64,000 nt of DNA from Longimicrobiales bacterium. GTDB taxonomy: Bacteria > Gemmatimonadota > Gemmatimonadetes > Longimicrobiales > Gaopeijiaceae. The notes under the pieces are model-generated. The model had not been told where the DNA came from, searched no databases, and was given only the letters and a program-made list of their open reading frames with translations. Each line of letters starts with the position of its first letter. Positions within the stretch are counted from its first letter, which is position 1. The DNA lies in the NCBI GenBank assembly GCA_035477395.1, contig DATIKQ010000033.1:5862-69861 (forward strand). The letters run 5' to 3'. Positions 13,135 through 62,654 of the stretch are shown piece by piece. Made by a program: the position numbers and the translations under genes.

Positions 13135-14418
13135 TCACCCCACCGTGGGGTCCAGGAGCACCTTGATGGAGCCCGACTTCCGCCGGTTCGCCGCGGCGGA
13201 GAGGGCGTCGCGGACCTGCGCGAGCGGATAGACGTGGGTGACCATCTCGGACACCGGCGCCCGCGTCTCCACCAGCAGGTCGTGGGTGATCTGGAACGTG
13301 TGGGCGTGGCCTCCGCGCCACTCCTCCCGCCCATAGCACACGAAGCCCTTGATGTTCAACTCCCTGGCCCACACGAACGTGAGGTCGAGCTTCCGGATCT
13401 CGGCGGCGCACCCAAGCATGACGATGCGCCCCCTGGGCGCGGCGAAGCGGAGGCACTGCTTGATGGTCTGGGCGCTCCCCACGCAGTCGTAGACCAGGGG
13501 GAATCCGCCTCCCGCGTAGACCTCGTCGCCCACGATGGGCATGTACCCCTGGGCTCCGGTCTCCACCAGGGCCTCCCGGGCTTCGTCGCCGGGGGAGACC
13601 ACCGAGCTCGCCCCCAGCTTCCTGGCCAGGGAGGCCTCGTTCCCACGCTTGATCTGCGCCACCAGCTCGCCCTCGAACCCGGCGGCCCTCAGCGACCAGA
13701 TGGTCCCCAGCGCGATGGGGCCGCTCCCCACCACCAGAGCGGGGCCCGTCCCCCACGGCCGCATCCCCAGCGCCGCGTGCATCCCCACGGAGATGGGCTC
13801 CACCAGCGCCGCGGTGCGGTCGTCCAGCGCGTCGGCCACGGGGAAGATCTGGCTCTCGTGGGCCACCATCTCCTGTGCCCACCCACCGGGCAGGTCCCGG
13901 TGATAGCCGATGGTGACGCCGCGGGCCAGGCCATGTCCCGCGATCTGCAGATCCCCTTCCTCGCCCTGGCGCTCGCATGTCGCCGACAACCCCGCGCGGC
14001 ATGACGCGCAACCCCGCTCTCCCGGGAACCCCCGGAGCGTGCACGAAACCACCGGATCCACGGTGACGCGCTGCCCCACCTCCACGGAGCGCACGGCGGG
14101 GCCCACCTCTGCCACCCGACCCAGGATCTCGTGCCCGAGGATCGCCGGGAACGAACCGAAGGGCTCCATGGCCGGGCTGGCCTTGAACGTCAGGTTGCCC
14201 ACATCCGTGCCGCAGATCCCCGCCTTCAGGACCTCGACCCGCACCCAATCCGCCCCGGGGAGCGGAGGAGAGCCGCGCTCCTCCAGCCGGAGCCCGCTGG
14301 CGCCCCCGAAGACGAACGCCTCGGAGAGCCCTCCCAGGGCCTTCCCCAGGACGTAGCCCGGGACCGTCACATTGAAGGAGACCGCGCGCACGGTCCGGCC
14401 CGTTTCCCTTCCGCTCAC
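13135..14418 (-). CDS. Zn-dependent MDR-family alcohol/polyol dehydrogenase with N-terminal extension
   Basis: GICGTDV catalytic-zinc motif, Cys cluster CASCRAGLSATC (structural Zn), and Rossmann VVGSGPIALG. The GTG start overlaps the stop of the upstream gene (GTGA). Confidence 0.8.
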   Translation of the reverse strand: MSGRETGRTVRAVSFNVTVPGYVLGKALGGLSEAFVFGGASGLRLEERGSPPLPGADWVRVEVLKAGICGTDVGNLTFKASPAMEPFGSFPAILGHEILGRVAEVGPAVRSVEVGQRVTVDPVVSCTLRGFPGERGCASCRAGLSATCERQGEEGDLQIAGHGLARGVTIGYHRDLPGGWAQEMVAHESQIFPVADALDDRTAALVEPISVGMHAALGMRPWGTGPALVVGSGPIALGTIWSLRAAGFEGELVAQIKRGNEASLARKLGASSVVSPGDEAREALVETGAQGYMPIVGDEVYAGGGFPLVYDCVGSAQTIKQCLRFAAPRGRIVMLGCAAEIRKLDLTFVWARELNIKGFVCYGREEWRGGHAHTFQITHDLLVETRAPVSEMVTHVYPLAQVRDALSAAANRRKSGSIKVLLDPTVG

Positions 14419-14972
14419 CCGAGTATCCCGACGGGCCCGAAGAGCCGGTTCCCCGGCACCCTCGGGTCGTCGCTGCGATAGAACTCGTGGACCATATCCA
14501 TGAGTTCATCCCTCGTGACCGCGCCGTCGCCGTCCACGTCCAGGTCCAGGAAGACCAGGCGCGCCATGGCGGCCTTCAGCCCGTAGATGCCGTAGAAGTT
14601 GCAGAACTCGTCGGCCCCCAGCACACCATCCCCGTCGGTGTCGAAGAGCTCGAACAGGCGATCAGCCAACTGGGCCACCTCGTTCCGGTAGCGGGCATCA
14701 TCATCGAGCACGCCCTCCCAGTGGCGCAGCCACTCCAGCAGGTCCACCGCCGCGTTGTCATCGGCATCCGCCGAAGCCCTCAAGGTCTCCCAGCGCAGGA
14801 GAAACCCTTCGTAGATGGCACGGTGCTGCGGGGTCTTCTCCGCCGCGAGGTGCAAGGCGCGCACGTTCTCCGCCACGCGTTCGAAGTCCGCCCGGGCGAT
14901 GCGCCCATCGTCGTCCACGTCGTAGAGACGGAAGTAGTGGGTGAGCTTTTCCTTCTGGAGCGGGGTGAGCAT
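14415..14972 (-). CDS. Calerythrin / sarcoplasmic-Ca-binding-protein-like EF-hand protein
   Basis: EF loops DVDDDGRIARADF, DTDGDGVLGADEF and DVDGDGAVTRDEL. The N-terminus KLTHYFRLYDVDDDGRIARADFERVAENV parallels calerythrin (from memory). Confidence 0.75.
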   Translation of the reverse strand: MLTPLQKEKLTHYFRLYDVDDDGRIARADFERVAENVRALHLAAEKTPQHRAIYEGFLLRWETLRASADADDNAAVDLLEWLRHWEGVLDDDARYRNEVAQLADRLFELFDTDGDGVLGADEFCNFYGIYGLKAAMARLVFLDLDVDGDGAVTRDELMDMVHEFYRSDDPRVPGNRLFGPVGILG

Positions 14973-45700: not shown

Positions 45701-46178
45701 CGAGCTTGCGTACTTCGAGGGAGACTACCCAACTGCCTTGGAGCACTTCAGGGCATCCGAGCAGTCGCTTGGGCCCTCCGTAATGCCGGCTGATATCCGG
45801 TTCCTAGTGAATGCAGCGATCGGCCTCTGCTCGGTGGAACTAGGCGCCTTTTCGGAGGCAAGACGCCGGGAGGAGGCAGTACGCGCATTCCAAGAGGCTT
45901 GGCATTTTGACCCAACGCTCCCATTGACCTTCTCGGTCCGTCTCCTCGAACGGCGCGCATCCCTCGCTGAGGCTTACGCAGCGCTCAACGGCGCCATGCC
46001 GGAAGTCCGGCTACGCTTCCCTGTCGCTTGGCTGAAGCTCCTGCCGCTCGAGGCCCGGCTAGCCCGACGGCTCCGGAAGCCAAATTGGGGGACCGCTGTC
46101 CAAGCTGGCATTTCCTTGGCGCAGGAACTCCGGCTAATCACGCGGGCGCGCATCCTTGAGGACGTCCTCAGGGTCTGA
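42783..46178 (+). CDS. STAND-type regulator: SARP-like wHTH/BTAD + AAA_16 P-loop NTPase + TPR/helical-repeat sensor
   Basis: ATGA overlap with the AraC-like gene. BTAD-like DLDHFHHAL...ALSLFRLGF...EDWLLAKREAL...ALDPGNE. Walker A RGEGGAGKTRL and Walker B LLFLDDLHWADATT. About 600 aa of helical repeats. Confidence 0.75.
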   Translation: MRGLPTGRSHRRFATSPLVHHHEAALPPGGASGDLRVSAARTEHDRPQLTLFGGPLLQRSPGVPVLLTPSHERLLALVWGHEDRGISRTSAIWLLWEEEDAPRSRQRLRQLLHDLGTRLGFRPLASHGEGRLVPGSGLVASDLDHFHHALTAHDLTKALSLFRLGFASRLDGRTGGEEYEDWLLAKREALRRMLREAAARAWDQARPAGAWERALDAAEVLAALDPGNEATVTKLVEARAVTGRILGAQQAACDFLAGLPSGTHPTREAAALFDRVRDMGPAPIVTGPSNRAQPPLVGRRHALQVARGALDRVAMGSFEFLLFRGEGGAGKTRLMEEVRREADVAGFRCLGARPVELERRIPLNPLVDMLGDPSVAPHIRGLDEPWRAVIASLLPTLPAGMDPPVVPPIAETSLSRRLYDAFATLFAAMADSGPHLLFLDDLHWADATTVAVLQFVQRRWRSGPLGVVAAIRPELISGSDEVARYLSNSGDLPVTAVELDDLTEGEARTLLDLVAGTELDAPAADRLLALGGRNPFYLIELTRDFVAGKVQLPELPTEAITLPISLRQLLEPRIQELGDAAANVAAHLAVWGRAITLPELALLTRSSLEDAAGSVEELERCRLATVEVGQVSLGHELFRSTIYQSLTATRRSLLHGRVAEFLNEQDGQQPGETAIHFARAGHAAGAARRGREAADRALESGAMAEAAYFLQLVVENVGDATLKAEATADLAKVLHMNREITRANPMLELAASRLRAVGRHDRALRMDIRRVEGLAEVGAAPLSDLLDRLATIKSLARSANDDEALALALDSELHLLHRSGRVTEIRALFDEIRPVTGSPDRAAACLANAALALNVLFGDADEALRCAREAVRIAEAGEGSRHRLECLNRLFLVLLYLGRARTPEGATTLARARQLSVKSGDLLNRFQIESNQGVAEMDAGDLDDASQSFASAAGILRGAQAAVMRLNHQYNLGELAYFEGDYPTALEHFRASEQSLGPSVMPADIRFLVNAAIGLCSVELGAFSEARRREEAVRAFQEAWHFDPTLPLTFSVRLLERRASLAEAYAALNGAMPEVRLRFPVAWLKLLPLEARLARRLRKPNWGTAVQAGISLAQELRLITRARILEDVLRV

Positions 46179-46220
46179 GGTGGCTTCTCCGAGTTGAGAC
46201 CCACCACTCCGCCCGTCGTG

Positions 46221-54350: not shown

Positions 54351-55418
54351 TCAGCCTCCCAGGAACTCGCTGAAGTACTCCTCGACGCCGACGAGCCGAT
54401 CCGTCATCCCGTCGTCGAAGGCCGACTTCAGGAAGGTCTCCAGAGCGTGGCGGTTCGGCTCCAGGCCGTGCTGGTGGAAGTCGGATCCGAGGAAGCGCAC
54501 CGTATCCTCCAGGTCCGCCATCTCCCAGGGCGTGCCGTAGGGAAAGAGCGTCCGCGCCGCCATGAACGCGCGCTCGCACTCCTGGAACGTCTCCACGAGC
54601 CTCGCGCCCAGCCCCGGCGTATTCTCCAGGATCCCCTTGCGCAGCACCAGCGTGTGCTGCGGCGGATAGCATGCGGTATCGCGGAAGTACTGCTTCTCGA
54701 CCGTGCGGAAGTCCGGCACGACGCGAACGATCGGTCCGCGCTCGGGATCGTGCCGGCGGGGGACTCCGGGCGCGAAGTAGGCGTCGAGCTCGCCCGCGAT
54801 CAACATGTCGCTCATCGTCCGGCCGCGCGGGGCGTGGGTCACGTGCGGAGGGTACGGCACCAGCGAGGCCGCTTCGTTCGGGGTGTCCGCGCCGCCCACC
54901 ACCCACCGGATGGCCTTGGGATCCTGCCCGAGCCAGCGAACGAAGTGGCGATACCAGACCGCGCCGCTCGCCGCCCAGTTGTAGATGCCGATGCGGTGCC
55001 CGTTCAGGTTGCCCGGCGAGAGCTCGGCACCCTTGCGCGTGTACAGGTCGCGCGCGGTGAAGTTGCGGAGCAGGAAGACCGGCACGGCCGCGAGGGAGTC
55101 GTCGCCCTCGGCCACCTTCAGGAGGTGACCCAACATGGACCGCTCGCCCCCGTGCAGCGCGGGGTCGGTCTGCGCCCGCGCGAGCATCTCGCTTCGCGGC
55201 CCCCGCACCCAGGTGAGCTTCGGGTCCGACATGGACACGTCGCCCGAGATGAGCGGCGCGTACCGCTCGTATGGGGTGATGGCGAGCGCTAGACCATCCT
55301 CCCTCTCGCGTGCCACCCGAGGTGCCGTGGGCCCGGCGAACGCCGTGTCGGCCATCAGCCCGGCTCCGGCCACGGACCCGGAAACCCTCAGGAACCGCCT
55401 CCTCGAAACCGGTCGCAT
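54351..55418 (-). CDS. Tat-signal periplasmic-binding-fold protein (NMT1/SsuA-like; family often annotated 4,5-dihydroxyphthalate decarboxylase)
   Basis: MRPVSRRRFLRVSGSVAGAGLMA twin-arginine leader. AVPVFLLRNFTARDLY...LNGHRIGIYNWAASGAVWYRHFV block. Its stop is 4 nt before the Memo-AMMECR1 start. Confidence 0.55.
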   Translation of the reverse strand: MRPVSRRRFLRVSGSVAGAGLMADTAFAGPTAPRVAREREDGLALAITPYERYAPLISGDVSMSDPKLTWVRGPRSEMLARAQTDPALHGGERSMLGHLLKVAEGDDSLAAVPVFLLRNFTARDLYTRKGAELSPGNLNGHRIGIYNWAASGAVWYRHFVRWLGQDPKAIRWVVGGADTPNEAASLVPYPPHVTHAPRGRTMSDMLIAGELDAYFAPGVPRRHDPERGPIVRVVPDFRTVEKQYFRDTACYPPQHTLVLRKGILENTPGLGARLVETFQECERAFMAARTLFPYGTPWEMADLEDTVRFLGSDFHQHGLEPNRHALETFLKSAFDDGMTDRLVGVEEYFSEFLGG

Positions 55419-55580
55419 GGTCCCTCCCGGGAACGCGTTGGGCAGGCCCCTCATACTCCCCTGGGAGCCCCGGCCGTGCAACCCCGGCGGGGATCGGGGC
55501 CGGTGCGGGCCCAGGCTCGACAGACGGACCCCCGCCTCCCACGTTGTGGCAATGCACCGACCACTCCATGGAGACCCCGC

Positions 55581-55976
55581 ATGAGCAGCCCCACCCATCT
55601 CCCTGTCCAGGCTTCAGGCCTTCCCAAGCCCATCGGCCCCTACTCCCCCGCCATGGCACTCGATCGCCTGATCCTCGTGTCGGGCCAGGGCGCCACCGAC
55701 CCGGCCACCGGAGCCATCGCCGGGCTCGACGTGGAGACGCAGACCGAGCAGGTCTTCCGCAACATGGGCGCGATCCTCCAGGCGGCCGGGAGTGATCTCC
55801 AGCACGTGCTGCGGTGCGGCGTATTCCTCGTGGACATGCGGGACTTCGAGAGGATGAACGCCGTCTACGCCAAGGTCTTCGGGGAGCACAGGCCGGCGCG
55901 CACCACCGTCCAGGTGGCGGCGCTCCCGGATCCGAGGCTCCGGGTGGAGATCGACGCCATCGCGTACCGGCCCTAG
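55581..55976 (+). CDS. RidA/YjgF-family reactive-intermediate deaminase
   Basis: PKPIGPYSPA...LVSGQ...TEQVFRNMGAILQAAG...VFLVDMRDF..MN.VY...ARTTVQVAALP...VEIDAIA. Confidence 0.9.
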   Translation: MSSPTHLPVQASGLPKPIGPYSPAMALDRLILVSGQGATDPATGAIAGLDVETQTEQVFRNMGAILQAAGSDLQHVLRCGVFLVDMRDFERMNAVYAKVFGEHRPARTTVQVAALPDPRLRVEIDAIAYRP

Positions 55977-56033
55977 TTCGCTAAGAGCAAGTCCGACCTG
56001 CATTTACGGGCACGAGTCCCGTCCGCGCGACCT

Positions 56034-56798
56034 TCACCCTGGGCGGCGGACGACGAAGAACTCGTAGGCGTAGTACTCCGAGTGCAGGCGGTGGATCTCG
56101 GGCTCCCGCGCCAGCCGATCGAGGATGGCCAACGCCTCCGCGTCGGCGGCGTACTTCCCTCGAAGCTCCCCGATACGCTTCGTCATCGGCGTGTAGAAAT
56201 CACCCCACCAGGCTTCGTCGGTCAGGGTGAAGTGGCCAACCAACGAGAAGCCGCAGATCCGGATCGACGCCAGGACGTCGGGGACCCACCCCATCGTCGG
56301 GTAGTCCACGTCGAAGCTCGCCTTCACCTCCGGCGGCGGGCCCTCCTTCCGCCAGACCGCTTCGGTGAACGCGAGGTGACCGCCCGGCCGCAGCAGCCCG
56401 CGGCAGATCCCCAGGGCGTTGTCGATGCCGACGTTGTAGAGCGCTCCCTCGGACCACACCAGATCGAAGCTCGCGGGCGGCAGCTCCAGGTTGGACATGT
56501 CGCCGACGACGGCGCGGATGCGGCTGCCCAGCCCGCGCTCCTCCACCGTCGAGCGAAGCCGCCGGATGCTCGGGGCGTGCCTGTCCACAGCGATGATGGG
56601 GCCCGAGGTGAACTCGGCCAGATGAAGCGTCTGGGCACCGGTGCCGCAGCCCAGGTCGAGCACCGCAGGGTCCGCCGGCAGGTCCCGGCACAGCTCGAAG
56701 GCCCTCGCCGCGCAGGCACGGCTTCCCGGACCTTGCCGGGGCAGCGCCCCGAAGAGCTCCAGGAGGATGTCCCAGAAGCGCGGATCGGGTCCGTTCAT
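56034..56798 (-). CDS. Class I SAM-dependent methyltransferase
   Basis: Motif I VLDLGCGTGAQT, and post-I/II DLVWSEGALYN. Last gene of the lipid operon. Confidence 0.8.
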   Translation of the reverse strand: MNGPDPRFWDILLELFGALPRQGPGSRACAARAFELCRDLPADPAVLDLGCGTGAQTLHLAEFTSGPIIAVDRHAPSIRRLRSTVEERGLGSRIRAVVGDMSNLELPPASFDLVWSEGALYNVGIDNALGICRGLLRPGGHLAFTEAVWRKEGPPPEVKASFDVDYPTMGWVPDVLASIRICGFSLVGHFTLTDEAWWGDFYTPMTKRIGELRGKYAADAEALAILDRLAREPEIHRLHSEYYAYEFFVVRRPG

Positions 56799-56802
56799 GC
56801 CC

Positions 56803-57312
56803 CTAACCCTCCCGGTTGGCCCGCCGCCGGACCATGAGCACGTGGCGGCCGGCCGGGACGTCGTCGAACTCCCGGTCCTTCCGGAAGCCGGCCTTGGCGA
56901 AGGCGCTCTGCGAGGCCTGGTTCTCGACCGACGCCGCCGCGATGACGAAGGGCACCGCGGGATCGGCCAGGGCCGACTCCGCGACCAGCGAGATCGCGCA
57001 GGGTCCCACGCCCCTGCCGGTGTCGGACACCTCGCCGATCAGGATGTCGATGTCGATGACGCTCTCGGGAATGTCGTGGAGTCCGGCCTCGTCGAGCTCC
57101 TGGCGCGTGGGGTGCTGCCACAGCACGACCCCCACCTTGCGGCCGTCGGCTTCGATGATCGCGCGCCGGGTCCCGGCAGGCGGCTCCCGCAACAGGCGTG
57201 CGTTTCCCTCGGGCTCGCCCCAGAAACGCCGGACATGGTCCGCGCGCAGCCACCGCTCGATGAGGCAAAGGTCACCGGCCCCCACCTCGGTCAAGCACAC
57301 CGATAAGATCAA
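56803..57312 (-). CDS. GNAT-family N-acyltransferase (Acetyltransf_8-like)
   Basis: LIERWLRADHVRRFWG N-terminal motif. IDILIGE...GRGVG...N.AS..AFAKAGF core. TTG 57312 lies 1 nt after the upstream TGA. Confidence 0.7.
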   Translation of the reverse strand: MILSVCLTEVGAGDLCLIERWLRADHVRRFWGEPEGNARLLREPPAGTRRAIIEADGRKVGVVLWQHPTRQELDEAGLHDIPESVIDIDILIGEVSDTGRGVGPCAISLVAESALADPAVPFVIAAASVENQASQSAFAKAGFRKDREFDDVPAGRHVLMVRRRANREG

Positions 57313-57313
57313 G

Positions 57314-58060
57314 TCAGACCTTGACTTGCGGCAGTCTGGCCGCGATCCACCACGTCCGGTACACCGCGGTTCCCAGCGTTCCCAGGGCCACGATCCCCAG
57401 GACCACGGCCAGGATCGCGCCCTGTTCCCGCCCCACCCAGGTCGAGACGGCCGGATCGAGGATGGCGCCGAACCCGAGCAGCAGGAGCCGCTCCGCCCGC
57501 TGCATGATGCCCACCTTGCAGACCACCCCCACACTCTCCCCTCGGGCACGGGCATAGCTCACGAGCAGGGAGCCTCCGAGGGCGGTCACCACCAGGACCA
57601 GCACCAGCGCCGACTCCTGGAAGAAGACCGCCAGCCCCACGAACGCGGCGAACTCGGCGAAGCGGTCCAGCGTCGAGTCCAGGAAGGCCCCATGCTCGCC
57701 GGCCACCCCCAATGCCCGCGCGAGGCGGCCGTCCACCACGTCCGACCAGCCCCCGAGGAGGATGGCCCATCCGGCCAGGGTCAGATGCCCCTGGGCGAAG
57801 AGCACCGCCGCCAGGACCCCGAACGCCACCCCCAGGAGGTTGAAGAAGAGAGGGCCGAGGCCGAGGGCCAGGGCCGCCCGGTCCACCGGCCCCTGGAACC
57901 AGAAGAACCAGTTCCGCAGGAATCCACCCAGGACGAACGAGCCCCGGTCCGCCACCTCGTGGGGGTCCCTCCCCCGCCGCGCCGCGCCGAGGGCGAAGAC
58001 CGGCATGGACAGGAGGGCGGCACCCAGGACCGCCAGCAGGAACGTGATCTCGGACCTCAT
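57314..58060 (-). CDS. CDP-alcohol phosphatidyltransferase-family phospholipid synthase (head-group specificity unknown)
   Basis: Signature D-x2-DG-x2-AR...G-x3-D-x3-D seen as SDVVDGRLARALGVAGEHGAFLDSTLDRF. Polytopic. ATGA overlap with the upstream gene. Confidence 0.85.
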   Translation of the reverse strand: MRSEITFLLAVLGAALLSMPVFALGAARRGRDPHEVADRGSFVLGGFLRNWFFWFQGPVDRAALALGLGPLFFNLLGVAFGVLAAVLFAQGHLTLAGWAILLGGWSDVVDGRLARALGVAGEHGAFLDSTLDRFAEFAAFVGLAVFFQESALVLVLVVTALGGSLLVSYARARGESVGVVCKVGIMQRAERLLLLGFGAILDPAVSTWVGREQGAILAVVLGIVALGTLGTAVYRTWWIAARLPQVKV

Positions 58061-59034
58061 GCGGGGCCCTCCCTGTCGGGGCGGGTGAAGAGCACTCGGA
58101 AGACGCGCGGCCACAGGAAGACCAGAGGCCACCGGCGTTCCAGCGGCGTGAGGGCGATGGTGATGCCCAGTCTCCGCTCCGCCTTGCGGTGCACATAGGG
58201 GAGCCAGTTGTCGAAGGTGACGACGTGCTTGAGCCAGCGCGCCGTGGCCCGGACCTTCGATCGGCGGAAGTGACGGTCCCACCGGCGCCGCTCCGAGGCC
58301 GGCCGGGGGGCGGCGAAGCGGTATCCGTCGGAGGCGACCACCAGGATGCCGTCTTCGGCCGCCCTCCGGAGCACCGTCTCCAGATAGCCGCGGAAGTGCT
58401 CCCGCTGCGCCTCGAAGACCGTGCTCGATCGGTCGCGGGCTTCGGGGCGCAACTCTCCCCCGTAGCAGACTTCGAGGATCCGGCGCCCCACCGCCTCGGC
58501 GTCGAAGGGCTCGTCCAGGTAGGGGCCGATCCAGGACAGGACTCCCCGGCGAGCCCCGTCCACAGCGTCCTCGAGCGCCCTGGCCTCGTCGGACCCCGCC
58601 ACCCACACCACGGCCACCTTCTGCACCAGACGTCCGAGGAGGAAGTGGTCCTTCGGGCGGGGTCCCAGAGCTGCCAGGAAGTGTTCACGGCTGACGATGA
58701 GGCACTTGGCGATCCCCTCCGAGCCCTGTCCAGGCGTGAAGGCGATGACGCTCGGAGGCAGGACCCCGGCCAACGCGGTCATCACCCGCGCCGAGCGGTG
58801 GAGCTCCCCCGCATCGCGTAGCGCCTCGTAGAACGACGGGTAATCGGAGACGACCACGACGAAGTCCAGGGCGCTGTTCTTGTCCGGCCGGGCACCGAGG
58901 AGGTGCGAGCCGTAGAGAAGGACGGCCCTGACCGTGCCCCGGCCAGCGCGGGCCAGCGCCTCGGCCATGGTCCCGGCGGAGATGATCACGGGCGTGGCTT
59001 CGGGCGCGGACGGACCGTCCACCGGTACCATCAT
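58057..59034 (-). CDS. Tam41/Mmp37-like nucleotidyltransferase (putative non-CdsA phosphatidate cytidylyltransferase)
   Basis: Blocks VLLYGSHL, LDFVVVVSDYPSFY, HFLLGRLVQKV, VCYGGELR and ...FEAQREHFRGYL parallel yeast Tam41 blocks FGYGSGVF, IDIILGV, FYLAGRLQKPV, SYAGDIR and NFERFQEYY (recalled from memory). ATGA overlaps on both sides. Confidence 0.6.
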   Translation of the reverse strand: MMVPVDGPSAPEATPVIISAGTMAEALARAGRGTVRAVLLYGSHLLGARPDKNSALDFVVVVSDYPSFYEALRDAGELHRSARVMTALAGVLPPSVIAFTPGQGSEGIAKCLIVSREHFLAALGPRPKDHFLLGRLVQKVAVVWVAGSDEARALEDAVDGARRGVLSWIGPYLDEPFDAEAVGRRILEVCYGGELRPEARDRSSTVFEAQREHFRGYLETVLRRAAEDGILVVASDGYRFAAPRPASERRRWDRHFRRSKVRATARWLKHVVTFDNWLPYVHRKAERRLGITIALTPLERRWPLVFLWPRVFRVLFTRPDREGPA

Positions 59035-59801
59035 GCGGGATCCAGCTTCCTGAGATCCGCCAGGGACTCCACCATGTGCTGGCGCATGGCCTCACCGAAG
59101 GCATCCGTATCACCGCGGGGATCCGCCCACTCGAAGGGCCCCACGAGCTTCGTCCGTCCCCGGATGTCCCCGACTCCACGGAGGAAGTCCTTCAGCTTCG
59201 CGCGCTGCCAGAACCCATCGGCAACGAGCACGTAGACGGTCCAGGGCCGCTGCTTGAGGATGAGCTTGAGGCCGGTGGGCCTGTAGCGTCCGATCTCCCC
59301 GTCCCTGCTCCGCGTTCCCTCCGGGAAGATGGCCAGCGGCACGTCCGAGGAGCGCGCCGCGTCACGGATGGAGGCGAGCATCCGCTTGGTCTCGTTGGAG
59401 TTTGCCTTGGGGTCCACCACCGGGTATTGATAGAGCCGGATCATATGCGAGATTAGCGGGATCCAGCGCTGATAACGCTTCCGGGTGACGATTTTCGGAT
59501 ACGTTCCGTGGATGGCCGAGACCACCAGGGGGATGTCCAGCACCGACTGGTGGTTCATCAGGACCAGGACCCCCTCCCGCCCCTGGATGCTCGGTACCGA
59601 TTGGACTTGGGCGCCTCCCACGAGGCGCAACGTGGCAAGGATGCCGTTCGCGAGGAAACGCTGCCACCGGCTGAAGGCCCCGATGCGGCGGGGTGGCGTG
59701 GCATGCGCCCAAGGGGCCACGAAGGCCCGCTGGATCGGATCGAGGAGCACGAGGGCCAGGAGGATGATCGACAGGGCCAGGTAGCCACGGAGCGTCTTCA
59801 A
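59031..59801 (-). CDS. plsC: 1-acyl-sn-glycerol-3-phosphate acyltransferase (PlsC family)
   Basis: NHQSVLD (HX4D) and FPEGTRSRDGE motifs. TTG 59801 gives MKTLRGYLALSIILL. The track's TTG 59918 would leave only 14 nt to the divergent gene. Confidence 0.85.
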   Translation of the reverse strand: MKTLRGYLALSIILLALVLLDPIQRAFVAPWAHATPPRRIGAFSRWQRFLANGILATLRLVGGAQVQSVPSIQGREGVLVLMNHQSVLDIPLVVSAIHGTYPKIVTRKRYQRWIPLISHMIRLYQYPVVDPKANSNETKRMLASIRDAARSSDVPLAIFPEGTRSRDGEIGRYRPTGLKLILKQRPWTVYVLVADGFWQRAKLKDFLRGVGDIRGRTKLVGPFEWADPRGDTDAFGEAMRQHMVESLADLRKLDPA

Positions 59802-59932
59802 CGGAGTTCCAGGTCGCAGGGTCCGGGCAGGGGTTCGCGGGTCGCTCGTGACCGCCAACGCTAATCGGAAGCTCCAAGGGGCATCAAGGCGGGACGTCTC
59901 AACAGGGGATTCGACCAAGGAAGGTGAGGCAT

Positions 59933-60595
59933 ATGGAGTTCACATACTACCGGTACAAGAACGTCGTTGGTGGGTACTTCGAGATGCCCACCGGTGACGC
60001 CCGTGCGCTTCTCCCGTCTCATCTGCAGCCGGTCGAGCCGCAGCACTCCCGCAGCATCTTCGCGGTGACCTGCTTCGAGTTCACCGACAGCCTGGTGGGT
60101 CCCTACAACGAGGTCGTGCTGGGCGTCGTCGTCCCCCCCCTCGTCCAACCGGGCAAGCCCTTCCCCAGGGCCGGGTTCTACCCCTTCATGGTGGGCACGT
60201 CGACCGTTGCTTCGCGCCAGCACGCCATCGAGCGGTGGCACCTGCCGCACTACATCAAGGACCTGGACATCCGCTTCACCGAGGCGGCCGGGAGGATGGA
60301 CGTCGCGGTACGGGATGACGGCGAGCCGGTCTTCGACCTGGTGGTGACGGCCCACGAGTACCACCCCATGAAGAACCTGTACAACTGCTTCATGGCGGAC
60401 GCCGACGGGCACTACAAGGCCAACATCTACATGGAGGCGGCCCACTCCGAGCACGAGAACGAGCGGGGATCCATCACGCTGCACGCCCACGCCATGACGA
60501 CGGGGCTCACGATCGAGGACGTCGCCACGTCGCCCTTCCGTGAGGAATGGTATCAGGCCGGGCTGCAGACCTTCGAGCCGCTGGAGACGCTCTGA
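59933..60595 (+). CDS. Acetoacetate-decarboxylase-like (ADC-fold) family protein
   Basis: ATG lies after AAGGAAGGTGAGG. The pattern ...ARALLPSHLQPVE...IFAVTCFEFTDSLVGPYNEVVLGVVV resembles the ADC-like family N-terminal half. Recognition is by pattern only. Confidence 0.4.
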   Translation: MEFTYYRYKNVVGGYFEMPTGDARALLPSHLQPVEPQHSRSIFAVTCFEFTDSLVGPYNEVVLGVVVPPLVQPGKPFPRAGFYPFMVGTSTVASRQHAIERWHLPHYIKDLDIRFTEAAGRMDVAVRDDGEPVFDLVVTAHEYHPMKNLYNCFMADADGHYKANIYMEAAHSEHENERGSITLHAHAMTTGLTIEDVATSPFREEWYQAGLQTFEPLETL

Positions 60596-61533
60596 AGGAC
60601 CGGAGGGTCTTCGTCATCTTCAACCCCGCTTCCGGACGGGGGCGGGGCGCACGTCGCCTCGCCAGCTATCGGTCGCTGCTGGAGGAGCACCTCCCCGGTG
60701 TCGAGATCGGCACAACCAGCCGCCCCGGCGAGGAGCGGGGGCTCGCGGAGCGGGGGCTGGATGCCGGAGCCGACGTGATCGTTGCGGTGGGAGGCGACGG
60801 CACGTGGAGCAACGTCGCCGACCGCGTCGTCGCTTCCGGCCGCTCCGACGTCTCGTTCGGGATCCTCCCCAATGGGACCGGTAACGACTTCGGCCGCAAT
60901 CTGGGCTTCGACCCGGCGAACGCTCGCGAGGCCGTCCGGGTCCTGGCCACTGGGCACACCCGGCTCGTGGACGTCGGCCGCCTGGACACGCCGAGCGCCT
61001 CCGAGCACACGCCGGACCGCGTGGAGTCCCGCCATTTCCTGAACCTGGTGGGCTTCGGCTTCGATGTGGCCGTCATCGACGCTGCGGCCCGGGCGCGCTT
61101 CCTCAGGGGCGAGCTGCTCTACAAGGTGACCGCGCTGCAGCAACTCTTCCGCTTTCTCGGCACGCGCATCGGCGTCCAGACCGCCGGTGGCGACGTAAGG
61201 GACGGGCGCCACCTCATGCTGACGGTCTCCAACGGGCGTTACTTCGGCGGCGGCTTCCCCATCGCGCCTGCGGCGACGCCGTTCGACGGGCGGCTGCACG
61301 CATGCCGCATCATGGACGCGCCACCCCTCGGCCGCCTCAACCTCTTCAACCTTGCCGAGACGGGCCGCCACGTGACGTCGGAGCGCGTGGAGATTCTCGA
61401 CGCCGAGAGCTTCCGCCTCTCGTTCGACGCTCCGCCGCGCTTCGAGATGGACGGGGACGTCCGGCAGGCGTCGGCCCCCGTCCTTGAAGTCCGGATCCTC
61501 CCCGCGGCGCTCAGGGTCGTCGTGCCCGCCTGA
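60547..61533 (+). CDS. Diacylglycerol/lipid kinase catalytic-domain protein (YegS/BmrU-like)
   Basis: VFVIFNPASGRGRG and VIVAVGGDGTWSNV (GGDGT). ATG 60547 overlaps the upstream gene by 49 nt, and I saw no canonical alternative start. Confidence 0.8.
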   Translation: MVSGRAADLRAAGDALKDRRVFVIFNPASGRGRGARRLASYRSLLEEHLPGVEIGTTSRPGEERGLAERGLDAGADVIVAVGGDGTWSNVADRVVASGRSDVSFGILPNGTGNDFGRNLGFDPANAREAVRVLATGHTRLVDVGRLDTPSASEHTPDRVESRHFLNLVGFGFDVAVIDAAARARFLRGELLYKVTALQQLFRFLGTRIGVQTAGGDVRDGRHLMLTVSNGRYFGGGFPIAPAATPFDGRLHACRIMDAPPLGRLNLFNLAETGRHVTSERVEILDAESFRLSFDAPPRFEMDGDVRQASAPVLEVRILPAALRVVVPA

Positions 61534-61642: not shown

Positions 61643-62260
61643 ATGACGCTTCCCTCGCCCCGACTCCGCACCCCGAACCGCCCCCCGGTGGCCCTCCACG
61701 ACCGGGCCATGGACAACCTCCGCTACATCCGGGAGACGATGGAGCGCTCCCAGTCCTTCACTGCGGTTCCCGGGCTGGGCGGCGTACTCATGGGACTCAT
61801 CGCTCTCGGCGCGTCGCTGGTGGCCGTCCGGGCGCCATCGACGCTGGCCTGGGTGACCGTCTGGATGGGCGCCGCCGTCGTATCGTTCGGCGTGGCCGTG
61901 GTCGCCATGAGCCGCAAGGCTCGCTCGGCAGGAGGGAAGCTCCTCGAGGGCGCGGGTTGGAAGTTCACCTGGAACCTGACGCCGCCGCTCCTGGTGGGCG
62001 CGTTGCTGACGCTCGCGCTCACCCGCGCGGGCGCGACGCAGCTCCTCCCCGGGGCCTGGCTGCTCCTCTACGGAACCGGCGTCGTGACCGGTGGGGCGTT
62101 CTCGGTACGGGTGGTGCCCCTGATGGGCTTTGCGTTCATGCTCTCCGGAGCCGCGGCGCTCTTCGTGCCCCCAGGGTGGGAGAACGTGATCATGGCCGCC
62201 GGGTTCGGCGGCCTGCACATCGTGTTCGGCATCGTGATCTGGAGGCGGCATGGCGGCTAA
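61643..62260 (+). CDS. Polytopic membrane protein, unknown function, paired with wHTH regulator
   Basis: 205 aa with about 6 TM helices. Overlaps the downstream regulator by 11 nt. Confidence 0.6.
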
Positions 62261-62654
62261 GCGGGAGTCGGTGGCCCGGAGCGAGGTCGAGGTGAGCCGC
62301 TCTCCGGCCCCCCTGGGGAGCATCACCGGGCAGGGTGCCGAGGCGGGCCCGTTGGAGCTGGATCGCCTCATCCACGAGCGGGTCCGTCTCGGAATCGTCA
62401 GCGCGCTGGCAGTCAATGGTCTCATGCCCTTCACAGACCTGCGGAACCTCCTCGGCACCACGGACGGGAACCTCAGCGCCCATGCCCGCCGTCTCGAGGA
62501 TGCCGGCTACGTGCTTTGCCACAAGTCCTTCGAGGGCCGGACCCCCCGTACGGATTTCGAGCTGACGCCCCGGGGTCGAAAGGCGCTGCGCGCCTATCTG
62601 GATCACATGGAAGCCATCATCCGCGCCACGCGTGACCGGGAGGCCGGTTCATGA
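62250..62654 (+). CDS. Winged-helix (HTH_34-like) transcriptional regulator
   Basis: [77 protein letters not shown]. Confidence 0.75.

What the first reader, a model, noticed from the sequence alone, without database searches (positions are those of the whole stretch)
56034..59918. Translationally coupled phospholipid operon built on a Tam41/Mmp37-type (non-CdsA) CDP-DAG synthase, extended by GNAT and SAM-methyltransferase genes
Five minus-strand genes are packed head to tail:
- A PlsC acyltransferase (NHQSVLD, FPEGTRS).
- A 325-aa protein.
- A CDP-alcohol phosphatidyltransferase (SDVVDGRLARALG...FLDSTLDRF).
- A GNAT.
- A class I SAM methyltransferase.

The junctions seen directly are ATGA at 59031-59034 and ATGA at 58057-58060. 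TGA 57314-57316 is followed by TTG 57312, and a 4-nt gap precedes ATG 56798.

The 325-aa protein matches block by block what I recall of yeast Tam41:
- LLYGS vs GYGSG.
- LDFVVVV vs IDIILGV.
- HFLLGRLVQK vs FYLAGRLQKP.
- CYGGELR vs SYAGDIR.
- REHFRGYL vs FERFQEYY.

If that holds, one transcript would encode LPA -> PA -> CDP-DAG -> phospholipid using the mitochondrial-type cytidylyltransferase rather than CdsA. The two trailing modifying enzymes suggest head-group N-acylation and/or methylation, so the product could be an undescribed lipid. Bacterial Tam41 homologs are known structurally, but I am not aware of a described dedicated operon of this composition.
Basis: partly seen in the sequence, partly recalled or inferred. 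Interest (0 to 1): 0.75.

Follow-up and report, generated by a model that had tools for sequence, protein, structure and literature searches.

The report
Bacterial operon with mitochondrial-type lipid enzyme
A soil-type bacterium (phylum Gemmatimonadota) carries a conserved three-gene membrane-lipid operon whose middle gene, so far labelled "hypothetical", is a very divergent relative of the mitochondrial enzyme Tam41. Tam41 makes the activated lipid CDP-diacylglycerol. The two extra genes at the end of the operon are an unrelated add-on.

Summary
The five head-to-tail minus-strand genes and their ATGA overlaps are real.

**The 325-aa protein.**
- It has no direct Pfam, NCBIfam or PDB sequence hit.
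- Its AlphaFold model's only good structural neighbours are Tam41 CDP-DAG synthases (7ecd, 6ig4/6ig2).
- A profile of its wider family hits solved Tam41 sequences at E = 2e-11.
- 39 of 69 family members reach PF09139 at E of 0.01 or better.
- I read it as a divergent, unannotated Tam41 subfamily.

**The conserved core.**
- The PlsC-like / Tam41-like / PIP-synthase-like triad is kept in essentially all 80 Gemmatimonadota species genomes sampled.
- It also occurs as PlsC–Tam41 and Tam41–CDP-OH-transferase fusions elsewhere.
- It faces a conserved divergent block: ADC-like gene, YegS-type lipid kinase, membrane protein, HTH regulator, UppS.

**The GNAT and methyltransferase.**
- They are not part of the conserved system.
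- They are missing from an 86%-identical relative. Among the other related loci, only the GNAT appears, partially, in a truncated 93%-identical locus.
- The same pair recurs at 73% identity in an unrelated context.

**Best reading:** LPA or DAG → PA → CDP-DAG (Tam41-type) → probably phosphatidylinositol phosphate.

**Open points:** whether CdsA is absent from the genome, and what the final lipid is. Neither could be tested here.

**Novelty:** a new variant of a known kind, of moderate interest.

The parts
59031..59801 (-). PlsC-type lysophospholipid (probably lysophosphatidate) acyltransferase. The ORF is open to 59918, but the likely start is TTG 59801.
   Evidence: - PF01553, 55 bits.
- NHQSVLD and FPEGTR motifs.
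- The only PDB sequence hit is T. maritima PlsC, 5kym, at 4.9e-9.
- Conservation starts at LKTLRGYL.
- Present in 82/83 related loci.
- Fused to the Tam41-like protein in P0137, P0147, P0149, P0156 and P0273.
58057..59034 (-). Divergent Tam41/Mmp37-family nucleotidyltransferase, a putative CTP:phosphatidate cytidylyltransferase. It has an NTase domain, a helical/winged domain and a basic C-terminal tail.
   Evidence: - No direct Pfam, NCBIfam or PDB sequence hit.
- AF2 model: pLDDT 84.7, pTM 0.84.
- Foldseek top hits are Tam41 (7ecd, 6ig4, 6ig2) at E 3e-7 to 6e-5.
- The family profile A2 hits 6ig2 at 2.2e-11 and 7ecd at 5e-7.
- 39/69 members hit PF09139.
- The last 80 residues carry a net charge of +13.
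57314..58060 (-). CDP-alcohol phosphatidyltransferase of the PIP-synthase / archaetidylinositol-phosphate-synthase type.
   Evidence: - PF01066, 48 bits.
- Signature DVVDGRLARALGVAGEHGAFLDSTLD.
- NCBIfam best hits are AIP synthase at 121.8 bits and PIP synthase at 104 bits. Both fall below the equivalog cut-offs.
- Best PDB hits are PIP synthases: 5d91 at 1e-15 and 6h53 at 2e-13. PgsA 7drj scores only 8e-3.
- Present in 79/83 loci.
56803..57312 (-). GNAT (Acetyltransf_8, AAC(6')-like). A lineage-specific addition, the first gene of a GNAT-MTase cassette. Probably not part of the lipid system.
   Evidence: - PF13523, 60.6 bits.
- Found near the triad only in L004, which is 93% identical.
- A 73%-identical homologue overlaps the MTase homologue in the unrelated locus L090.
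56034..56798 (-). Class I SAM methyltransferase, the second gene of the GNAT-MTase cassette. Probably not part of the lipid system.
   Evidence: - Methyltransf_25/11.
- 70-77% identical homologues in Planctomycetota, Lentisphaerae, Myxococcota-type, Thermodesulfobacteriota and Actinobacteria MAGs.
- Found in varied contexts.
- Absent from all related Tam41-like loci.
59802..59932 (.). Divergent intergenic region between the PlsC-like gene and the ADC-like gene. Presumed to hold promoters for both operons.
   Evidence: - Sequence read directly.
- No sigma-70 consensus found.
- The role is inferred from gene starts only.
59933..60595 (+). Acetoacetate-decarboxylase-fold protein of unknown role. 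The most conserved neighbour of the triad.
   Evidence: - PF06314 at 22.3 bits, below the cut-off.
- Homologues are 63-75% identical and mostly pre-annotated PF06314.
- The AF2 model has modest quality (pLDDT 69.6). In the Foldseek search with it, the top 23 hits are all ADC superfamily, with E about 1e-9 for the best.
- Present in 75/83 loci.
60547..61533 (+). YegS/Rv2252/BmrU-family lipid (diacylglycerol) kinase. It overlaps the end of the ADC-like gene by 49 nt.
   Evidence: - PF00781 plus PF19279.
- TIGR00147 at 125.5 bits, above the 118.65 cut-off.
- Present in 67/83 loci.
- A DAGK_cat gene directly overlaps a Tam41-like gene in the distant locus L084.
61643..62260 (+). 205-aa multi-pass membrane protein of unknown function. 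Conserved member of the divergent block.
   Evidence: - No Pfam hit on record for its homologues.
- Present in 56/83 loci.
62250..62654 (+). Winged-helix (HTH_34-type) regulator in the divergent block.
   Evidence: - Pfam annotation of homologues.
- Present in 54/83 loci.
62651..63391 (+). Cis-prenyltransferase (UppS-type). Last conserved gene of the divergent block. It is followed by a 4HBT thioesterase (63393-63830), not by cdsA.
   Evidence: - PF01255 in homologues.
- Present in 53/83 loci; the 4HBT gene is present in only 17/83.

Best explanation
The conserved unit is a three-gene, start/stop-overlapping operon that makes an anionic glycerophospholipid through its own CDP-diacylglycerol supply.

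**Proposed steps.**
1. The PlsC-like enzyme acylates lysophosphatidate to phosphatidate (PA).
2. The divergently encoded YegS-type kinase gives a second route to PA, from diacylglycerol.
3. The 325-aa protein is a peripheral membrane enzyme. It has a Tam41-type nucleotidyltransferase/winged-helix core and a strongly basic C-terminal tail. It transfers CMP from CTP to PA to give CDP-DAG.
4. The integral-membrane CDP-alcohol transferase, closest to bacterial PIP synthases, transfers the phosphatidyl group to a phosphorylated alcohol, most likely inositol phosphate. This gives PIP, the precursor of PI.

**The add-on.** The GNAT and methyltransferase are a separately acquired two-gene cassette that landed downstream in this lineage.

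**Shown here.**
- Gene order and overlaps.
- Family and fold assignments.
- Phylum-wide synteny.
- Gene fusions.
- Independence of the cassette.

**Inferred.**
- Every enzymatic activity.
- Identity of the acceptor alcohol.
- Co-transcription.
For: **Tam41 relationship.**
- Foldseek top hits are exclusively Tam41. 7ecd scores E 3e-7 over 278 aligned columns, with TM 0.69 normalised to the target. 6ig4/6ig2 score 4e-7 to 6e-5. The next family, ANT(4'), has TM about 0.3.
- Profile A2 hits SpTam41 at 2.2e-11 and FbTam41 at 5.1e-7 over profile positions 19-219.
- 39/69 members hit PF09139.
- Invariant family residues G42, S43, D57, K110 and R135, plus the nearly invariant R196, align with the Tam41 motifs YGSG, IDF, IKYG, AGRFQKP and GDIR.
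- Only one NTase-type acidic residue is kept, as reported for Tam41 (PMC11646218).
- The C-terminal 80 residues have a net charge of +13. This matches the positively charged C-terminal membrane anchor of Tam41 (PMC7018664).

**Functional coupling.**
- The triad is present in 82/83 (PlsC-like) and 79/83 (CDP-OH transferase) Gemmatimonadota loci.
- PlsC-Tam41L fusions and a Tam41L-CDP-OH_P_transf fusion exist.
- A DAGK_cat gene overlaps a Tam41-like gene in L084.

**Acceptor.**
- PIP synthases are the best PDB hits, at 1e-15 to 3e-13, against 8e-3 for PgsA.
- The M. tuberculosis inositol-phosphate residues R94, Y133, K135 and R137 (PMC6506517) align with R, Y, R and R of the window protein.
- The Eisenbacteria locus L086 also carries PatA-like and PimA-like (GT4) genes nearby.

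**Cassette.**
Against: - The window protein itself has no PF09139 hit at E up to 10.
- hhalign of the narrow alignment A1 against single Tam41 sequences is weak, with P = 0.019 and 0.074.
- PF09139 matches in relatives cover only profile positions of about 95-225 out of 322.
- The CDP-OH transferase is below the NCBIfam equivalog cut-offs for PIP and AIP synthase.
- No inositol-phosphate synthase or PIP phosphatase was seen in the window or in related loci.
- The ADC-like protein is the most conserved neighbour and has no role in this scheme.
- Three deep-branching loci add an alpha-oxoamine synthase, which hints at a non-glycerol lipid.
- No activity, transcript or lipid data exist.
Confidence: 0.62

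Rival explanations
1. The Tam41-like enzyme activates a lipid phosphate other than phosphatidate. One example is a ceramide- or amino-alcohol-type lipid phosphate made with the help of the lipid kinase and the ADC-like protein, and in some lineages an alpha-oxoamine synthase. The PIPS-like transferase would then build a non-glycerol inositol-phosphate lipid from a CDP-activated intermediate.
For: - In L083 (deep Gemmatimonadota), L085 and L086 (Candidatus Eisenbacteria), an Spt/BioF/Kbl-like alpha-oxoamine synthase directly precedes ADC-like and then DAGK_cat. L086 adds a Zn-ADH. All sit next to PlsC-Tam41L and the CDP-OH transferase.
- The DAGK_cat family also includes ceramide and sphingosine kinases (my own knowledge).
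- The ADC-like gene is unexplained by the glycerolipid scheme.
Against: - The alpha-oxoamine synthase is absent from the window and from 77 of 80 Gemmatimonadota loci.
- The PlsC fusion argues for PA as the immediate substrate.
- All characterised Tam41 enzymes use PA.
- The synthase scores well below the Spt equivalog cut-off, 363 bits against 640.
- The same gene set also fits a PI/DAG recycling loop that serves inositol-phosphoceramide synthesis.
Confidence: 0.1
2. The GNAT and methyltransferase act on the head group of the lipid made by the upstream three genes and give an N-acylated and/or methylated novel lipid.
For: - The genes are tightly packed on the same strand: a 1-nt and a 4-nt spacer, with no terminator-like site.
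- Operon accretion is sometimes functional.
- AAC(6')-like GNATs act on aminocyclitol or aminosugar substrates.
Against: - GNAT and MTase are absent downstream of the triad in the related loci. The exception is the truncated 93%-identical L004, which keeps part of the GNAT. They are also absent from the 86%-identical L005.
- The same overlapping pair, 73% identical for each protein, sits between PEPCK and PQQ/patatin genes in L090 with no lipid triad.
- The MTase is 70-77% identical across unrelated phyla and occurs alone in other contexts.
Confidence: 0.1
3. The 325-aa protein is a nucleotidyltransferase for a soluble substrate. It might make CDP-inositol or nucleotidylate a small molecule. 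The CDP-alcohol transferase would then use that CDP-alcohol with diacylglycerol, in a Kennedy-type route.
For: - Some CDP-alcohol transferases use CDP-alcohol plus a lipid acceptor. A putative CDP-inositol route has been proposed in Bacteroidetes (PMC9246714).
- Weaker fold matches include aminoglycoside nucleotidyltransferases.
Against: - The known CDP-inositol enzymes are NTP_transferase (GlmU-like) proteins, not Tam41-like.
- Tam41 structures are by far the best neighbours, with TM 0.57-0.69 against about 0.3.
- The basic, aromatic-rich C-terminal tail suggests membrane binding.
- Fusion to PlsC places the protein next to PA synthesis.
- The transferase is closest to CDP-DAG-using PIP synthases.
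Confidence: 0.08

Closest known systems
Tam41/TAMM41 (Mmp37, PF09139) mitochondrial CDP-DAG synthase, and its characterised bacterial homologue (Firmicutes Tam41, PDB 7ecd)
   Same: - NTase plus winged-helix fold.
- Colinear conserved motifs with a single acidic NTase residue.
- Positively charged C-terminal region and no transmembrane helix.
- Soluble/peripheral design, unlike the integral-membrane CdsA.
   Different: - Too divergent for PF09139, NCBIfam or direct PDB sequence searches.
- Identity to Tam41 structures is 10-16%.
- It has its own strongly conserved C-terminal motifs, TF(D/A)NWLPY and LERRWPLxFLWPR.
- It is embedded in a conserved bacterial operon and sometimes fused to PlsC or to the CDP-alcohol transferase.
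- Activity is untested.
Actinobacterial/Bacteroides PIP synthase pathway (PgsA1/PIPS; BT_1523) and the M. tuberculosis lipid kinase Rv2252
   Same: - CDP-alcohol transferase signature and conserved inositol-phosphate-contacting residues.
- The YegS/Rv2252-family kinase is encoded alongside.
- L086 has PatA-like and PimA-like neighbours, reminiscent of the mycobacterial pgsA1-patA-pimA cluster (the comparison is from my own knowledge).
   Different: - Below the equivalog cut-offs.
- An extra N-terminal segment of about 50 residues.
- No MIPS or PIP phosphatase gene in the neighbourhood.
- CDP-DAG is apparently supplied by a Tam41-type enzyme encoded in the same operon, rather than by CdsA.
Canonical bacterial uppS-cdsA arrangement (CdsA, PF01148)
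   Same: - A cis-prenyltransferase gene lies in the same conserved neighbourhood as a putative CDP-DAG synthase gene.
- That uppS and cdsA are adjacent in many bacteria is from my own knowledge.
   Different: - The enzyme is unrelated to CdsA in fold and topology.
- No CdsA signature is present in the window or in about 1.06 Mb of related loci.
- Whether CdsA exists elsewhere in these genomes is unknown.

Membership tests
Tam41/Mmp37 CDP-DAG synthase (PF09139) | Direct significant match of the protein to the PF09139 model | tested here: not met
   - No PF09139 hit at E up to 10. The only hit is PF18765 Polbeta NTase at E 0.093.
- No NCBIfam hit.
Tam41/Mmp37 CDP-DAG synthase (PF09139) | Sequence homology to experimentally characterised Tam41 proteins, at profile level or through intermediates | tested here: met
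   - Profile A2 (69 full-length relatives found at phmmer E of 6e-18 or better) hits 6ig2/6ig4 at 2.2e-11 and 7ecd at 5.1e-7.
- 39/69 members hit PF09139, the best at 7.5e-12.
- The narrow alignment A1 alone is weak, with P = 0.019 and 0.074.
Tam41/Mmp37 CDP-DAG synthase (PF09139) | NTase domain plus winged-helix domain fold, with Tam41 as nearest structural neighbour | tested here: met
   - AF2 model: pLDDT 84.7, pTM 0.84.
- The Foldseek top five hits are all Tam41, at E 3e-7 to 6e-5 with target-normalised TM of 0.55-0.69.
Tam41/Mmp37 CDP-DAG synthase (PF09139) | Conserved active-site pattern: GS...single Asp of the NTase motif, plus basic residues (K, R) that hold CTP | tested here: met
   - G42, S43, D57, K110 and R135 are invariant across 69 relatives, and R196 is nearly so.
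- These residues align with the Tam41 motifs YGSG, IDF, IKYG, GRFQKP and GDIR.
- The single-acidic-residue feature is described in PMC11646218.
- Residue-level roles in Tam41 could not be checked. The structure papers are not held.
Tam41/Mmp37 CDP-DAG synthase (PF09139) | Positively charged C-terminal membrane-binding region; no transmembrane helix | tested here: met
   - Residues 246-325 hold 20 K/R and 7 D/E, a net charge of +13. They are helical in the model.
- The feature is described in PMC7018664.
- Actual membrane binding was not tested.
Tam41/Mmp37 CDP-DAG synthase (PF09139) | CTP:phosphatidate cytidylyltransferase activity | not testable with these tools
   Needs an enzyme assay or complementation of a CdsA-depleted strain.
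CDP-alcohol phosphatidyltransferase, PIP-synthase type | PF01066 match and the D1xxD2GxxAR...GxxxD3xxxD4 signature | tested here: met
   - PF01066 at 48.1 bits, above the cut-off of 22.
- DVVDGRLARALGVAGEHGAFLDSTLD.
CDP-alcohol phosphatidyltransferase, PIP-synthase type | Score above the NCBIfam equivalog cut-offs for PIP or AIP synthase | tested here: not met
   - NF040950: 121.8 bits against a cut-off of 180.
- NF045883: 104 bits against 170.
- NF052561: 96.8 bits against 350.
CDP-alcohol phosphatidyltransferase, PIP-synthase type | Residues that bind inositol phosphate in M. tuberculosis PgsA1 (R94, Y133, K135, R137) | tested here: met
   - The alignment to 6h53 gives DSTLD-R, and SY-A-R-A-R for Y133/K135/R137, with K135 replaced by R.
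- Residue roles come from PMC6506517.
- This is alignment-based only.
CDP-alcohol phosphatidyltransferase, PIP-synthase type | A supply of inositol phosphate (MIPS) and a PIP phosphatase in the genome | tested here: inconclusive
   - No MIPS motifs in the window or in about 1.06 Mb of related loci.
- The rest of the genome could not be searched.
PlsC/LPAAT acyltransferase (PF01553) | HX4D and (F)PEGTR motifs, Pfam match, similarity to a solved PlsC | tested here: met
   - NHQSVLD and FPEGTRS.
- PF01553 at 55 bits.
- 5kym at 4.9e-9.
- TIGR00530 scores 44.5 bits, below its cut-off of 102.95. Substrate specificity is therefore not established.
YegS/Rv2252/BmrU lipid kinase | Score above the TIGR00147 cut-off; DAGK_cat plus YegS_C domains | tested here: met
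   - TIGR00147 at 125.5 bits, above 118.65.
- PF00781 at 96 bits and PF19279 at 87 bits.
Translationally coupled operon | Overlapping stop/start codons, conserved order in relatives, and a single transcript | tested here: inconclusive
   - Overlaps and conserved order are met.
- Transcription is not testable here. No promoter or terminator consensus was found anywhere in 55400-60700.

The most novel reading that the evidence does not exclude
The ancestral module has six genes: an alpha-oxoamine synthase, the ADC-fold protein and a DAGK_cat lipid kinase, facing the PlsC-like, Tam41-like and PIPS-like genes. This arrangement is still intact in Candidatus Eisenbacteria and in one deep Gemmatimonadota lineage. 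In this reading it builds an inositol-phosphate lipid on a non-glycerol (sphingoid or amino-alcohol) backbone. The route would go through a CDP-activated lipid phosphate that is not CDP-DAG, which would be a liponucleotide not described so far.

A second, separate novel reading is that Gemmatimonadota lack CdsA altogether. They would then use this Tam41-type enzyme, encoded next to uppS where cdsA sits in many bacteria, as their only housekeeping CDP-DAG synthase. I give that reading a probability of roughly 0.2.
Probability: 0.08. Interest if true: 0.85.

Novelty: new variant of a known kind. Interest (0 to 1): 0.55.

Why it matters
**What is already known.** CDP-DAG is the hub of phospholipid synthesis. 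Bacteria are assumed to make it with the integral-membrane enzyme CdsA. The unrelated peripheral enzyme Tam41 is known mainly from mitochondria, plus one characterised Firmicutes homologue.

**What this adds.**
- A large Tam41-related subfamily: 636 clusters at 50% identity with E of 0.001 or better.
- The subfamily is invisible to Pfam and NCBIfam and is labelled "hypothetical" in the source annotations that carry a name.
- It is conserved across Gemmatimonadota and wired into an operon with the enzymes that act just before and after it. In other lineages it is physically fused to those enzymes.

**What follows from it.**
- Hundreds of genes get a testable annotation.
- Gemmatimonadota are predicted to make inositol (or related) phospholipids.
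- There is a natural system for asking why a cell would use a Tam41-type rather than, or in addition to, a CdsA-type synthase.
- It adds bacterial diversity relevant to the origin of mitochondrial Tam41.

Tried and rejected
- **Direct family assignment of the 325-aa protein.** Pfam at E up to 10, NCBIfam, phmmer against PDB, and the narrow profile A1 against PDB gave nothing relevant.
- **hhalign of A1 against single Tam41 sequences.** The sequences were re-typed from the alignment. The result was weak, with P = 0.019 and 0.074. I use it only for residue mapping.
- **Search for cdsA and MIPS.** Regex searches for the CdsA PROSITE-type signature and for MIPS motifs found none in the window or in 89 sequences totalling 1.06 Mb. 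This says nothing about whole genomes.
- **Promoter and terminator scan.** Nothing was found, which is uninformative at 70% GC.
- **Tam41 structure papers.** Jiao 2019, Kimura 2022 and Tamura 2013 are not held. Published catalytic-residue numbering could not be checked.
- **Literature searches.** No paper links Gemmatimonadota or a bacterial operon to Tam41.
- **Polar lipids of Gemmatimonadota.** Nothing useful was found.
- **ADC-like protein.** The fold is confirmed, but the region that might hold a catalytic lysine (residues 142-173) is modelled with low confidence. Its chemistry stays open.
- **Chance adjacency of the five genes.** I considered and rejected this on synteny and fusions.
- **The GNAT/MTase as conserved members.** I considered and rejected this on synteny and on the L090 cassette.

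Full report
**1. Observation**

The window has about 70% GC.

The junctions read as described:
- ATGA at 59031-59034 and at 58057-58060.
- TGA at 57314-57316, one base, then TTG at 57312.
- TAG at 56803-56805, four bases, then ATG at 56798.

Pfam confirms four of the five assignments:
- PF01553 acyltransferase.
- PF01066 CDP-alcohol phosphatidyltransferase.
- PF13523 GNAT.
- Methyltransf_25/11.

The quoted motifs are there, and the CDP-alcohol transferase signature is intact.

One refinement concerns the acyltransferase. Conservation across homologues starts at LKTLRGYL, so its start is probably TTG 59801 rather than 59918. That leaves a 131-bp divergent intergenic region before the next gene.

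**2. The 325-aa protein**

There is no PF09139 hit even at E = 10. There is no NCBIfam hit, and no meaningful PDB sequence hit with the single sequence or with a profile of 30 close homologues. The close homologues that carry a source name are Gemmatimonadota "hypothetical proteins", and none of the 120 listed has a Pfam domain.

Three independent lines nevertheless tie it to Tam41.

*Structure.* An AlphaFold2 model built on the alignment is confident (pLDDT 84.7, pTM 0.84). Its five best Foldseek matches in the PDB are all Tam41:
- The Firmicutes enzyme with CTP-Mg, 7ecd: E 3e-7, 278 aligned columns, target-normalised TM 0.69.
- S. pombe Tam41, 6ig4/6ig2: E 4e-7 to 6e-5.
- The next fold family, aminoglycoside nucleotidyltransferases, drops to TM about 0.3.

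*Profile through intermediates.*
- An exhaustive phmmer search found 636 representative clusters.
- A profile of 69 full-length members (A2) hits SpTam41 at E 2.2e-11 and Firmicutes Tam41 at 5.1e-7, over profile positions 19-219.
- 39 of the 69 members hit PF09139 on their own.

*Residues and architecture.*
- G42, S43, D57, K110 and R135 are invariant across the 69 relatives, and R196 is nearly invariant. They align with the Tam41 blocks YGSG, IDF, IKYG, AGRFQKP and GDIR.
- Only one NTase-type acidic residue is present, as reported for Tam41 (PMC11646218).
- The last 80 residues are helical and carry a net charge of +13. This matches the positively charged C-terminal membrane anchor of Tam41 (PMC7018664).

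I conclude that this is a divergent Tam41 subfamily. Its activity is inferred, not shown.

**3. Neighbours in the operon**

*Acyltransferase.*
- Its only PDB sequence hit is T. maritima PlsC.

*CDP-alcohol transferase.*
- It is much closer to PIP synthases than to PgsA. The scores are 5d91 at 1e-15, M. tuberculosis PgsA1 at 2e-13 and PgsA at 8e-3.
- Its best NCBIfam models are archaetidylinositol-phosphate and PIP synthase, but both score below the equivalog cut-offs.
- The residues shown by mutagenesis to matter for inositol-phosphate binding in PgsA1 are R94, Y133 and R137, together with K135 (PMC6506517). They align with R, Y, R and R here.

An inositol-phosphate acceptor is therefore the best guess. 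No MIPS gene was seen nearby.

**4. Conservation**

A scan of one genome per GTDB species returned 80 loci, all Gemmatimonadota (Gemmatimonadales and Longimicrobiales MAGs). I ran tblastn with the window's proteins against 83 held loci:

| Gene | Loci with a hit |
|---|---|
| PlsC-like | 82 |
| CDP-OH transferase | 79 |
| ADC-like | 75 |
| YegS-type kinase | 67 |
| 205-aa membrane protein | 56 |
| HTH regulator | 54 |
| UppS | 53 |
| GNAT | 1 (L004, 93% identical, truncated) |
| Methyltransferase | 0 |

Called genes in two long contigs show the same layout, with 4-nt overlaps.

Beyond the phylum:
- The Tam41-like domain occurs fused to PlsC (P0137, P0147, P0149, P0156, P0273), including in a Candidatus Eisenbacteria MAG.
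- It occurs fused to a CDP-OH transferase (P0180).
- In L084 a DAGK_cat gene overlaps a Tam41-like gene that does hit PF09139.

These fusions and overlaps are strong evidence that the acyltransferase, the kinase, the Tam41-like enzyme and the transferase act in one pathway.

**5. The GNAT and methyltransferase**

- In the 86%-identical relative L005, the CDP-OH transferase is followed directly by RidA and Memo-AMMECR1. The window therefore carries an insertion.
- The methyltransferase has 70-77% identical homologues in Planctomycetota, Lentisphaerae, Anaeromyxobacteraceae, Thermodesulfobacteriota and Actinobacteria MAGs.
- It sits in varied contexts.
- In L090 the same GNAT (73% identical) overlaps the methyltransferase homologue (73% identical). 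The pair lies between PEPCK and PQQ/patatin genes, with no lipid genes nearby.

This is a portable two-gene cassette. The reading that it modifies the lipid head group is not supported. Co-transcription in this genome remains possible.

**6. The divergent block and an open thread**

The ADC-like protein is more conserved than the Tam41-like one, at 63-75% identity. It has the acetoacetate-decarboxylase fold. It has no place in the simple glycerolipid scheme.

In L083, L085 and L086 an alpha-oxoamine synthase directly precedes ADC-like and the kinase. Its best NCBIfam matches are serine palmitoyltransferase, BioF and Kbl, all below their cut-offs. L086 adds a Zn-ADH, and it also carries PatA-like and GT4 genes about 5 kb away.

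Two readings fit:
- A PI/DAG recycling loop that serves inositol-phospho-sphingolipid or PIM-like synthesis. The kinase would recycle DAG to PA, and the Tam41-like and PIPS-like enzymes would regenerate PI(P).
- More radically, CDP-activation of a non-glycerol lipid phosphate.

I rate the second reading at about 8%.

**7. CdsA**

The window contains no CdsA signature. Here uppS is followed by a thioesterase, not by cdsA. The rest of the window is ordinary chromosome: Suf, thiolase, peptidases and thymidine kinase.

**8. Known or new**

- I found no paper describing this subfamily, its operon or its presence in Gemmatimonadota.

I file it as a new variant of a known kind. It is an unannotated, highly divergent Tam41 subfamily with a conserved, sometimes fused, PA → CDP-DAG → PIP-type operon.

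Scores:
- Confidence in the mechanistic reading: about 0.62.
- Interest: 0.55.

Noticed in passing
L085:5099-10456; L086:3749-10516; L083:1857-7688: In three deep-branching loci (a JGI metagenome contig, Candidatus Eisenbacteria, and one Gemmatimonadota MAG), an alpha-oxoamine synthase directly precedes ADC-like and then the YegS-type kinase. The synthase is Spt/BioF/Kbl-like and scores below all equivalog cut-offs. L086 adds a Zn-ADH. All sit next to PlsC-Tam41L and the PIPS-like gene. This may be the ancestral form of the module.
   Followed up: partly
L086:467-2442: A Lip_A_acyltrans (PatA-like) gene and a GT4 glycosyltransferase (PimA-like) gene lie about 5 kb from the Eisenbacteria PlsC-Tam41L/PIPS-like genes. 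The layout is reminiscent of the mycobacterial pgsA1-patA-pimA cluster.
   Followed up: no
Proteins P0124 (1152 aa) and P0125 (756 aa): The Tam41-like domain is fused to a C-terminal cytochrome P450 domain in two metagenomic proteins. P0124 also has about 400 unassigned N-terminal residues. This is unexplained.
   Followed up: no
window 56034-57312; L090:4492-5762: The GNAT-methyltransferase pair is a portable cassette. L090 carries the same overlapping pair at 73% identity. The methyltransferase is 70-77% identical across at least five phyla, which suggests frequent horizontal transfer of a gene with an unknown, possibly detoxifying, function.
   Followed up: partly
window 54351-55598 (-): A 415-aa ORF with high GC3 and no Pfam or NCBIfam hit lies between RidA and the Memo-AMMECR1 gene. 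In the 86%-identical relative L005, RidA and Memo-AMMECR1 are only about 135 bp apart, and tblastn with the 415-aa protein found no match in any related locus. It looks like a second lineage-specific insertion.
   Followed up: partly
window 62651-63830 (+): The UppS gene is followed by a 4HBT thioesterase rather than by cdsA. UppS sits in the same conserved block as the putative non-CdsA CDP-DAG synthase. This raises the possibility of in-situ non-orthologous displacement.
   Followed up: no
window 60547-60595: The YegS-type kinase ORF (ATG 60547) overlaps the end of the ADC-like gene by 49 nt. There is no alternative standard start codon between 60547 and the conserved kinase domain.
   Followed up: partly
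window 46000-48000: GC drops locally to 0.616, against about 0.70 elsewhere. The region holds a MASE9/HD_5 (HD-GYP-type) gene at 46221-47639 and an ORF with no Pfam hit at 47902-48633.
   Followed up: no
window 13135-14972 (-): An EF-hand protein (14415-14972) lies immediately upstream of a Zn-dependent alcohol dehydrogenase (13135-14418). That dehydrogenase is 36% identical to the ADH placed next to the lipid kinase in L086.
   Followed up: no
L084:5788-7703: In a distant genome (GCA_037439705.1), a DAGK_cat gene overlaps the start of a Tam41_Mmp37-positive gene by 4 nt, with no PlsC or CDP-OH transferase adjacent. The kinase-Tam41 pairing is therefore broader than the full operon.
   Followed up: no
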